Assembly: GCA_951406725.2 (NCBI GenBank)
Contig: OX597832.1
Span: 30,070,001 to 30,134,000, forward strand
Reading direction: 5' to 3'
Source: Octopus vulgaris
Lineage: Eukaryota
Length of the DNA: 64,000 nt
Shown: positions 56,687 through 56,898 of the stretch, piece by piece
Numbering within the stretch: the stretch's first letter is position 1
Layout: each line of letters opens with the position of its first letter
The notes under the pieces: generated by a model
Told to the model about the DNA's origin: nothing
The model's database searches: none
The model's input: only the letters and a program-made list of their open reading frames with translations
Position numbers and translations under genes: made by a program

Positions 56687-56898
56687 AGTTAATCCAAACA
56701 TGAGCAAAGAGAAAACACAACAACGCGAGGACGTGGAATGAGTATAGTGTTATTGGACGCCCAGGAAAGGAAAGAAAGAAAGGAGGATTTAACGTTTCGA
56801 GCGGAGCTCTTCGTCAGAAACATAGAAAAAGGAAAGATCCAAGGAAGGGAAGACGGAGGAAAAAAATCGCCAACGATACACACGCGGTCACATATTGA
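56687..56898 (-). mobile_element. Hammerhead-bearing Penelope-like element, copy 2 (~212 bp)
   Basis: Same sequence as 28402-28610 in the opposite orientation; adjacent to TA/TATG repeats. Confidence 0.7.
56787..56821 (-). ncRNA. Minimal type-I hammerhead ribozyme motif (intact copy)
   Basis: Minus strand reads GUUU-CUGACGA-A-GAGC(UCC)GCUC-GAAAC-GUU^AAAU: conserved core, 4-bp stem II, palindromic AACGUU in place of stem III, and stem I GUUU/AAAU. Confidence 0.75.

What the first reader, a model, noticed from the sequence alone, without database searches (positions are those of the whole stretch)
56687..56898. (TA)n-targeting ~210-bp element family carrying a minimal hammerhead ribozyme
Seen: four copies of one element (28402-28610 +, 56687-56898 -, 54415-54468 +, 62630-62733 +), all beside TA-type microsatellites. 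The two long copies contain GUUU-CUGACGA-A-GAGC(UCC)GCUC-GAAAC-GUU-(A/C)AAU, i.e. the hammerhead core, a 4-bp stem II, a palindromic AACGUU replacing stem III, and a short stem I. Established: Penelope-like retroelements carry such minimal type-I hammerheads, proposed to act as dimers, and an extra A after A9 is a known natural variant (CChMVd plus strand). Inference: this is a non-autonomous, ribozyme-processed (retrozyme-like) retroelement that uses microsatellites as safe-harbour targets in a cephalopod. I cannot tell whether this particular family has been described.
Basis: partly seen in the sequence, partly recalled or inferred. Interest (0 to 1): 0.82.

Follow-up and report, generated by a model that had tools for sequence, protein, structure and literature searches.

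The report
Octopus repeat carrying minimal hammerhead ribozyme
A roughly 210-base repeat that sits in many copies beside TA microsatellites in octopus DNA carries the minimal hammerhead ribozyme motif already described for Penelope-like jumping genes, and is likely a non-coding offshoot that those elements copy around, so it is a new member of a known kind whose self-cutting is untested.

Summary
Observation confirmed. Four copies lie in an octopus SHOX2 region: two full-length (87% alike) and two lacking the 5' part. The motif fits the published minimal hammerhead of metazoan Penelope-like elements (PLEs) point by point (Cervera and de la Pena 2014); the extra A is part of that consensus. Contigs of four public runs show a very high-copy family, with sharp 5' and 3' ends joined to (TA)n and a longer upstream form in one run. 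'Ribozyme-processed retrozyme' is not shown. Copies are dispersed monomers spanning the uncut site. The core is no more conserved than the rest. U4 reads C in 33-46% of depth. Stem II shows no covariation, and stem I shows one pair-keeping change. Most likely it is a non-autonomous pseudo-LTR derivative of a (TA)n-targeting PLE, copied by that element's enzymes, with a weak or passenger ribozyme. No parent ORF could be linked. The concept is in print; I found no paper describing this family, but Repbase and Dfam could not be searched. One truncated copy starts at the predicted cut, a single-case hint worth a genome-wide test.

The parts
56686..56898 (-). Copy B, full-length element (213 nt; 42% U, 27% C on the hammerhead strand)
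   Evidence: family ends at 56895-56899 and about 56686 (tables 2, 7)
56787..56821 (-). Minimal type-I hammerhead motif of copy B: stem I 56821-56818 with 56790-56787; C3-A9 56817-56811; extra A 56810; stem II 56809-56806 with 56802-56799; G12-A14 56798-56796; palindrome 15.1-16.1 56795-56792; U17 56791; predicted cut between 56791 and 56790
   Evidence: sequence; descriptor; published consensus; cleavage untested
28402..28610 (+). Copy A, near full length (last 8 nt missing, 9-nt internal duplication near the 5' end)
28488..28522 (+). Hammerhead motif of copy A; C at 1.1 (28519) breaks the closing pair of stem I, so this copy is likely inactive
   Evidence: allele rare
62627..62731 (+). Copy D, lacks the 5' half; begins 0-2 nt from the predicted cut site
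   Evidence: common U1.4-to-C allele
54410..54467 (+). Copy C, last 58 nt of the element only
56608..56685 (.). TACA/TA microsatellite at the 3' end of copy B (likely target)
54469..54612 (.). (TA)n at the 3' end of copy C
28378..28401 (.). (TA)n directly at the 5' end of copy A
62733..62774 (.). (TA)n at the 3' end of copy D

Best explanation
The element is a high-copy, non-coding octopus repeat with a PLE-type minimal hammerhead motif and (TA)n at both ends, and it is likely a non-autonomous derivative of the terminal repeat (pseudo-LTR) of a (TA)n-targeting Penelope-like retroelement, copied in trans by that element's enzymes. Shown: fixed ends, (TA)n flanks, copies lacking the 5' part, and a match to the minimal hammerhead consensus. 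Inferred steps: (1) a master copy is transcribed on the U-rich hammerhead strand; (2) a PLE protein (RT plus GIY-YIG endonuclease, probably Neptune-like) nicks a (TA)n tract and primes reverse transcription from the element's 3' end; (3) RT usually runs through the uncut hammerhead to a fixed 5' end and sometimes stops early. The hammerhead would cut only as a two-copy (double) ribozyme and slowly, so in most transposition events it is carried uncut.
For: The motif matches every listed trait of metazoan PLE minimal hammerheads: CUGANGAH, a base between 9 and 10.1, G10.1-C11.1, palindromic 15.2-16.2, U-rich 5' flank. By eye, the closest of the rows I read in Fig. S3 is the Acropora digitifera Neptune hammerhead, with the same core and stem II differing at one base. 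6,813, 16,609, 17,645 and 5,222 contigs were laid in the four runs. Loose ends are TA-rich at 56899 (68, 103, 72, 26 contigs) and at 56893-56895 (52, 85, 76, 17), and the 3' end runs into TA. 89 contigs of X2 continue upstream of 56900 into a shared non-TA sequence (agreement 0.56) unlike the element's 3' end, as expected of a longer parent. Both partial window copies keep the 3' end (2 of 2). (TA)n bias is reported for Neptune and Naiad PLEs and listed for octopus Hydra-1 and Naiads. O. vulgaris holds 190 PLE families (6.83% of the genome), 31 with recent copies. Stem I changes G.U to G-C in 59-77% of depth. Single genome-wide minimal hammerheads and non-autonomous pLTR derivatives are in print.
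Against: No PLE ORF is linked: none in the window, no genome is held, and collection scans were empty. The upstream extension is only 30 letters, is among the top loose ends in 1 of 4 runs, and may be a tail or an unrelated context. The element does not match the published octopus Naiad or Hydra-1 entries by short-motif search. The core is not more conserved than the rest, and U4 is C in 33-46% of depth. Target-site duplications cannot be read in (TA)n. RNA polarity is inferred, not measured.
Confidence: 0.55

Rival explanations
1. The copies are not a family of their own but 5'-truncated ends of an autonomous PLE. Reverse transcription of the full-length RNA would keep stopping, or jumping to the (TA)n target, at one AT-rich spot, giving a false fixed 5' end.
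For: Most PLE insertions are 5'-truncated and keep one terminal repeat. A longer upstream form exists (X2, 89 contigs). The 5' ends fall in two or three classes at an AT-rich word with microhomology to TA (56893-56899), and the extension's last bases are complementary to bases just inside the element, so a hairpin would sit at that spot (my reading).
Against: TA-joined 5' ends at this spot outnumber the extension in X2 (103+85 against 89 contigs), and the extension is not among the listed loose ends of X1, X4 or X9. Depth falls about a thousandfold or more within 20-30 nt of the end, which is sharper than random truncation would give.
Confidence: 0.22
2. A true non-LTR retrozyme: tandem units separated by (TA)n are transcribed, cut by paired hammerheads, ligated to a circle of about 210-250 nt and reverse-transcribed by a PLE enzyme.
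For: Unit size and GC (41-43%) fit the 150-450 bp, <50% GC of animal retrozymes. Go-back joints that suggest two copies in tandem occur in one contig each of X2 and X4 (the same junction) and one of X9. Copy D starts 0-2 nt from the predicted cut. Retrozyme families can be almost all monomers. U4C is a natural viroid variant that stays infectious despite lower activity in vitro.
Against: 0 of 4 window copies are in tandem. Full-length copies are not permuted at the cut site. The hammerhead is of the minimal PLE type, not the canonical type of described retrozymes. The double-hammerhead fold scores -4.1 kcal/mol against -24.7 for an inactive dimer in copy B (nearest-neighbour model, no known-active control). 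A minimal hammerhead cut poorly even as dimer and trimer, and 1 of 9 Xenopus dimers cut in vitro.
Confidence: 0.15
3. A SINE-like passenger of a LINE, in which the hammerhead is a dead relic or a chance look-alike.
For: Copy A abuts the 3' end of a LINE fragment (RVT_1). The core shows no extra conservation. The 51-nt region folds no better than shuffles (z -0.95 and -0.44). RTE-related SINEs that favour (TA)n are recalled from the literature, not checked here.
Against: The strict descriptor arose in 0 of 60 simulated windows. The motif also carries published PLE traits and a pair-keeping stem I change. No pol III A box is found with <=1 mismatch, there are only 1-mismatch B-box look-alikes inside the hammerhead, and no tRNA. 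The other three copies have no LINE neighbour that I noted.
Confidence: 0.06

Closest known systems
Minimal type-I hammerheads of metazoan Penelope-like elements (Cervera and de la Pena 2014, PMC4209133)
   Same: Core CUGANGAH, extra base before stem II, G10.1-C11.1, no loop 3 with palindromic 15.2-16.2, short stem I, U-rich flank; mostly single, genome-wide copies. The Acropora digitifera Neptune row has the same core and a stem II one base apart.
   Different: No cephalopod among the rows of Table S1 and Fig. S3. A common U4C allele. Rough copy bracket of thousands to about 1e5, against 2,000-9,000 in the genomes of that paper. No ORF link shown here.
Non-autonomous pseudo-LTR derivatives of PLEs: Chlamys MRC1 (Craig et al. 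2021, PMC8557442) and vertebrate retrozyme monomers (Li, Clavereau and Pollet 2026, bioRxiv 10.64898/2026.07.22.740005)
   Same: Short, non-coding, microsatellite-associated (Chlamys) or hammerhead-bearing (Li et al.) elements derived from PLE termini and thought to use PLE enzymes.
   Different: Those often form head-to-tail arrays, and Li et al. define families from arrays; here dispersed monomers dominate what I could see. Li et al. sampled no mollusc.
Non-LTR retrozymes of animals (Cervera and de la Pena 2020, PMC7229834)
   Same: Unit size, low GC, type-I hammerhead, no ORF.
   Different: They carry canonical hammerheads in tandem arrays and make abundant circular RNA. Here the hammerhead is minimal, arrays are rare, and no RNA was shown.
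Octopus Hydra-1_Obim, Naiad_Obim and Naiad_Ovul (Craig et al. 2021 supplement)
   Same: Octopus PLEs with (TA)n insertion preference.
   Different: Hydra-1_Obim has a different hammerhead (7-bp stem II, 4-bp stem III), and Naiads lack canonical hammerheads. Short-motif searches of the supplement found no match to this element.

Membership tests
Metazoan PLE minimal hammerhead | Core CUGANGA ... GAAA ... UH with a base between A9 and 10.1 and a G10.1-C11.1 pair | tested here: met
   copies A and B against the consensus
Metazoan PLE minimal hammerhead | Palindromic 15.2-16.2 with no stable monomer stem III | tested here: met
   ACGU; a nested double-hammerhead structure can be written
Metazoan PLE minimal hammerhead | Stem I of at least 3 bp closing on the cut site | tested here: met
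   4 bp in copy B, with G.U to G-C in 59-77% of depth; broken in copy A only
Metazoan PLE minimal hammerhead | Core conserved beyond flanks; compensatory changes in stems | tested here: inconclusive
   1 of 12 core and 27 of 201 other sites vary >=3% in X1; U4C 33-46%; no two-sided change; young family, contig depth only, 19 rows hidden
Metazoan PLE minimal hammerhead | Self-cleavage as a dimer | not testable with these tools
   needs an in vitro assay
EN+ Penelope-like element (Neptune-like) or its pseudo-LTR | Terminal repeat joined to an RT plus GIY-YIG ORF | tested here: inconclusive
   none in the window; 30-letter upstream extension in 89 contigs of X2; no genome held
EN+ Penelope-like element (Neptune-like) or its pseudo-LTR | Insertion bias for (TA)n | tested here: met
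   6 of 8 ends against 14% background; TA loose ends in 4 of 4 runs
EN+ Penelope-like element (Neptune-like) or its pseudo-LTR | 5' truncation with a kept 3' end | tested here: met
   2 of 2 partial copies; small sample
EN+ Penelope-like element (Neptune-like) or its pseudo-LTR | Partial tandem or inverted insertions | tested here: inconclusive
   0 of 4 window copies; go-back joints in single contigs of X2, X4 and X9
Non-LTR retrozyme | Head-to-tail arrays with a hammerhead in each unit | tested here: not met
   0 of 4 window copies; arrays spaced by long (TA)n elsewhere cannot be excluded from contigs
Non-LTR retrozyme | Canonical type-I hammerhead with helix III and loop 1-loop 2 contacts (2020 definition) | tested here: not met
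   no helix III, 3-nt loop II, no Rfam hit; the 2026 preprint also admits minimal motifs
Non-LTR retrozyme | Abundant linear and circular unit-length RNA | not testable with these tools
   no holder on record as RNA; contigs cannot show circles
tRNA-derived SINE | Pol III A and B boxes in a tRNA-like head | tested here: not met

The most novel reading that the evidence does not exclude
Octopuses carry a SINE-like solo pseudo-LTR family of 1e4-1e5 dispersed monomers whose minimal hammerhead does cut in vivo, by pairing in trans between separate transcripts. Part of the family would be inserted cleavage products (copy D starts at the predicted cut), and a U4C lineage would have spread with a damped ribozyme. 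The genome would then hold a direct, countable record of minimal-hammerhead cleavage in vivo, bearing on the open question of what hammerheads do for Penelope-like elements.
Probability: 0.15. Interest if true: 0.62.

Novelty: new member of a known kind. Interest (0 to 1): 0.3.

Why it matters
The kind is known, so the find itself is modest: one more PLE-linked minimal hammerhead, in a group where my searches found only the unrelated Hydra-1_Obim hammerhead. Its use is as a test bed. Craig et al. 2021 state that hammerhead function in EN+ PLEs is unclear, and the 2014 paper had no in vivo evidence. A young family with thousands of copies or more, fixed ends and two common core alleles (U4 and C4) allows a purely computational test: whether 5' truncation points pile up at the cut site, and whether they do so only in the U4 lineage. 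It would also add a very abundant structured-RNA repeat to octopus genome annotation.

Tried and rejected
Rfam: the whole-window scan showed only microsatellite-driven miRNA/snoRNA matches among the 150 of 698 rows listed, and copy B gave no hammerhead hit. No genome is held. Exact-motif scans found 0 loci in viral contigs, metagenomes and GTDB, so no long flanks could be had. Run search: no RNA holder listed; X9 is only guessed to be RNA and is not used as evidence of expression. No PLE protein motif or second hammerhead family in the window. The upstream extension is not in the window: one 3-mismatch match, at chance level. Motif searches of the Craig et al. supplement gave 0 hits for five terms and 7 hits for four 10-letter terms in contexts unlike the element; line breaks could hide a match. 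A CpG-decay test of core selection was uninformative. Summed contig depth gives only a wide bracket and the tool warns it is no copy number. Folding z-scores were not significant. Earlier notes of this scan held no look-alike sequence and no note with both 'hammerhead' and 'octopus'. Lunse et al. (RNA Biol 14:1499) is not held. PMC12602865 and PMC6466107 passages added nothing. Considered and rejected: tRNA-SINE (no boxes), a chance motif, host regulatory RNA of SHOX2 (no evidence; repeat behaviour).

Full report
Observation. The four copies are real: A 28402-28610 (+), B 56686-56898 (-), and two that keep only the 3' part, D about 62627-62731 (+) and C 54410-54467 (+). A and B are 87% identical. 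Both carry the motif described. In standard numbering copy B has a 4-bp stem I, C3-A9, an extra A, a 4-bp stem II with a 3-nt loop, G12-A14, the palindrome A15.1-C15.2-G16.2-U16.1 and U17; the predicted cut lies between 56791 and 56790. A descriptor scan hits only these two places. The strict form (stem II >=4, stem I >=3) arose in 0 of 60 simulated windows; copy B meets it, copy A does not because C1.1 opens stem I. 6 of 8 copy ends lie within 10 nt of a (TA)>=4 run, against 14% of window positions. Rfam does not see the motif.

Host and setting. A homeodomain exon at 40758-40961 is identical over 62 aa to an Octopus bimaculoides SHOX2 cluster, so the cephalopod guess holds. A LINE fragment (RVT_1) ends next to copy A, which lacks its last 8 nt. 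No PLE ORF is in the window.

The family outside the window. No genome was held and collection scans were empty. 23 of 24 listed runs hold at least part of the element and 13 hold half its words or more, in 11 studies and four organism labels; none is on record as RNA. I laid 4 of these runs on 56672-57060 at 80% likeness: 6,813, 16,609, 17,645 and 5,222 contigs. Summed depth over the hammerhead is about 1e5 times that of the unique flank in the three runs that cover the flank. The tool warns this is no copy number; allowing up to 31-fold overcounting I bracket it at 3,700-114,000 (X2), 6,300-196,000 (X1) and 7,400-230,000 (X4), a rough inference. The ends are sharp: TA-rich loose ends at 56899 (68, 103, 72, 26 contigs) and 56893-56895 (52, 85, 76, 17), and the 3' end runs into TA. 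In X2, 89 contigs continue upstream of 56900 into a shared sequence (agreement 0.56) unlike the element's 3' end, a sign of a longer parent. Go-back joints that suggest tandem copies appear only in single contigs of X2, X4 and X9. 773 loose ends and 7 joints were not shown.

Is the hammerhead under selection? Not demonstrably. Of the 34 element positions listed, 5 lie in the 35-nt motif and 29 in the other 178 (Fisher p 1.0); 19 further rows were hidden. For X1 the per-class totals account for all but one site, and there 1 of 12 core positions and 27 of 201 others vary at >=3%. The variable core base is U4, read as C in 46, 33, 43 and 43% of depth. U4C is a natural viroid variant with lower in vitro activity that still supports infection (one passage). 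Stem I changes G.U to G-C in 59-77%, which keeps the pair. Stem II shows only a CpG-type change that breaks a pair (2-6%). In folding models stem II forms with probability about 0.64 and stem I about 0.01 in the whole monomer. A competing 7-bp helix pairs the 5' arm with G12-U16.1 (0.35 in B, 0.05 in A), and the double hammerhead scores -4.1 kcal/mol against -24.7 for an inactive dimer. These models ignore tertiary contacts and I ran no known-active control.

Mechanism. Shown: a non-coding unit with fixed ends, (TA)n at both sides, loss of the 5' part in partial copies, and a hammerhead motif in mid-unit that full-length copies carry uncut (108 nt before, 105 after in B). Inferred: transcription on the U-rich strand, nicking of (TA)n by a PLE GIY-YIG endonuclease and target-primed reverse transcription from the 3' end. 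I put this non-autonomous pseudo-LTR reading at 0.55, repeated truncation of an autonomous PLE at 0.22, a true circular-RNA retrozyme at 0.15 and a LINE passenger at 0.06. One hint favours occasional cutting: copy D begins 0-2 nt from the predicted cut when the common stem I allele is taken into account. It is one of two truncated copies. Ends at that site are not among the listed loose ends, but an indel beside it makes a poor test.

Comparison with what is known. Cervera and de la Pena 2014 (PMC4209133; read parts 1-2 of 4 and supplement parts 1-2 of 3) define this minimal hammerhead, including the extra base and the palindrome. They find it mostly as single copies 'probably related to truncated PLEs' and report no monomer activity and low dimer activity. 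The Acropora Neptune row is nearly the same motif. Craig et al. 2021 (PMC8557442; passages and supplement searches) give (TA)n bias for Naiad and Neptune elements, describe non-autonomous pLTR elements, and list octopus Naiads and Hydra-1_Obim, whose hammerhead differs from this one. Li, Clavereau and Pollet 2026 (preprint; parts 1-3 of 5, supplements not seen) argue that animal retrozymes are non-autonomous pLTR derivatives, with monomer shares from 0 to 1 and 1 of 9 dimers cleaving. Cervera and de la Pena 2020 (PMC7229834; passages) define retrozymes by tandem arrays with canonical hammerheads; 'octopus' does not occur in its main text. Bonar et al. 2026 (PMC13282606; parts 1-2 of 3 and the whole supplement) count 190 PLE families in O. 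vulgaris, with no hammerhead in the supplement; their library is on Zenodo and was not seen. A review (PMC6765202; passages) summarises dimer cleavage; Lunse et al. was not available.

Novelty. It works like, and by motif is a member of, the PLE minimal hammerheads. Membership of a PLE family is likely but unproven without an ORF. It fails the array test for retrozymes in this window. Searches for hammerhead+Penelope+octopus, cephalopod+hammerhead ribozyme, octopus+Penelope+SINE+microsatellite and octopus+ribozyme+retrotransposon (mostly listings only) showed no description of this family, but Repbase and Dfam could not be searched and so abundant a repeat is probably catalogued under some name.

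Noticed in passing
window 40758-40961 (+): Homeodomain exon of SHOX2, matching residues 133-200 of an Octopus bimaculoides protein; no other exon of it was found in the window at >60% identity.
   Followed up: yes
window about 28620-30270 (-): Broken LINE fragment with an RVT_1 match, likely CR1/L2-type, whose short repeated tail ends in the TA run at copy A's 3' end; it may have removed the last 8 nt of copy A.
   Followed up: partly
window 56742-56876, table 3: All 14 sites that vary at 10-90% in both X2 and X4 are C/U changes on the hammerhead strand (A/G on the other), while the element is 68% pyrimidine. It could reflect pyrimidine-tract slippage, RT bias, editing or purine constraint.
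   Followed up: partly
window 56931-57060, table 8: In X1 one contig joins the element's 5' end to this flank; in X2 and X4 the flank contig has 16 unaligned letters at the element side, which might be an empty-site allele or only a contig end.
   Followed up: no
window 54779-55366: Minisatellite with a 20/40/79-nt period, 300 bp from copy C.
   Followed up: no
window 7287-7737, 11617-11861, 13467-13954, 15741-15980, 17439-17832, 25187-25768, 30656-31167, 47163-47582, 53720-53960 and others: At least two other abundant SINE-like families of 200-450 bp, many beside TA runs, so TA adjacency is common among repeats here.
   Followed up: no
window 45756-45836: A near-perfect 81-nt inverted repeat that is not microsatellite, possibly a MITE (seen as a sub-threshold miRNA match).
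   Followed up: no
window 56806-56811 (-) and 28498-28503 (+): Stem II contains a second 6-nt palindrome that drives an inactive dimer in the folding model.
   Followed up: partly
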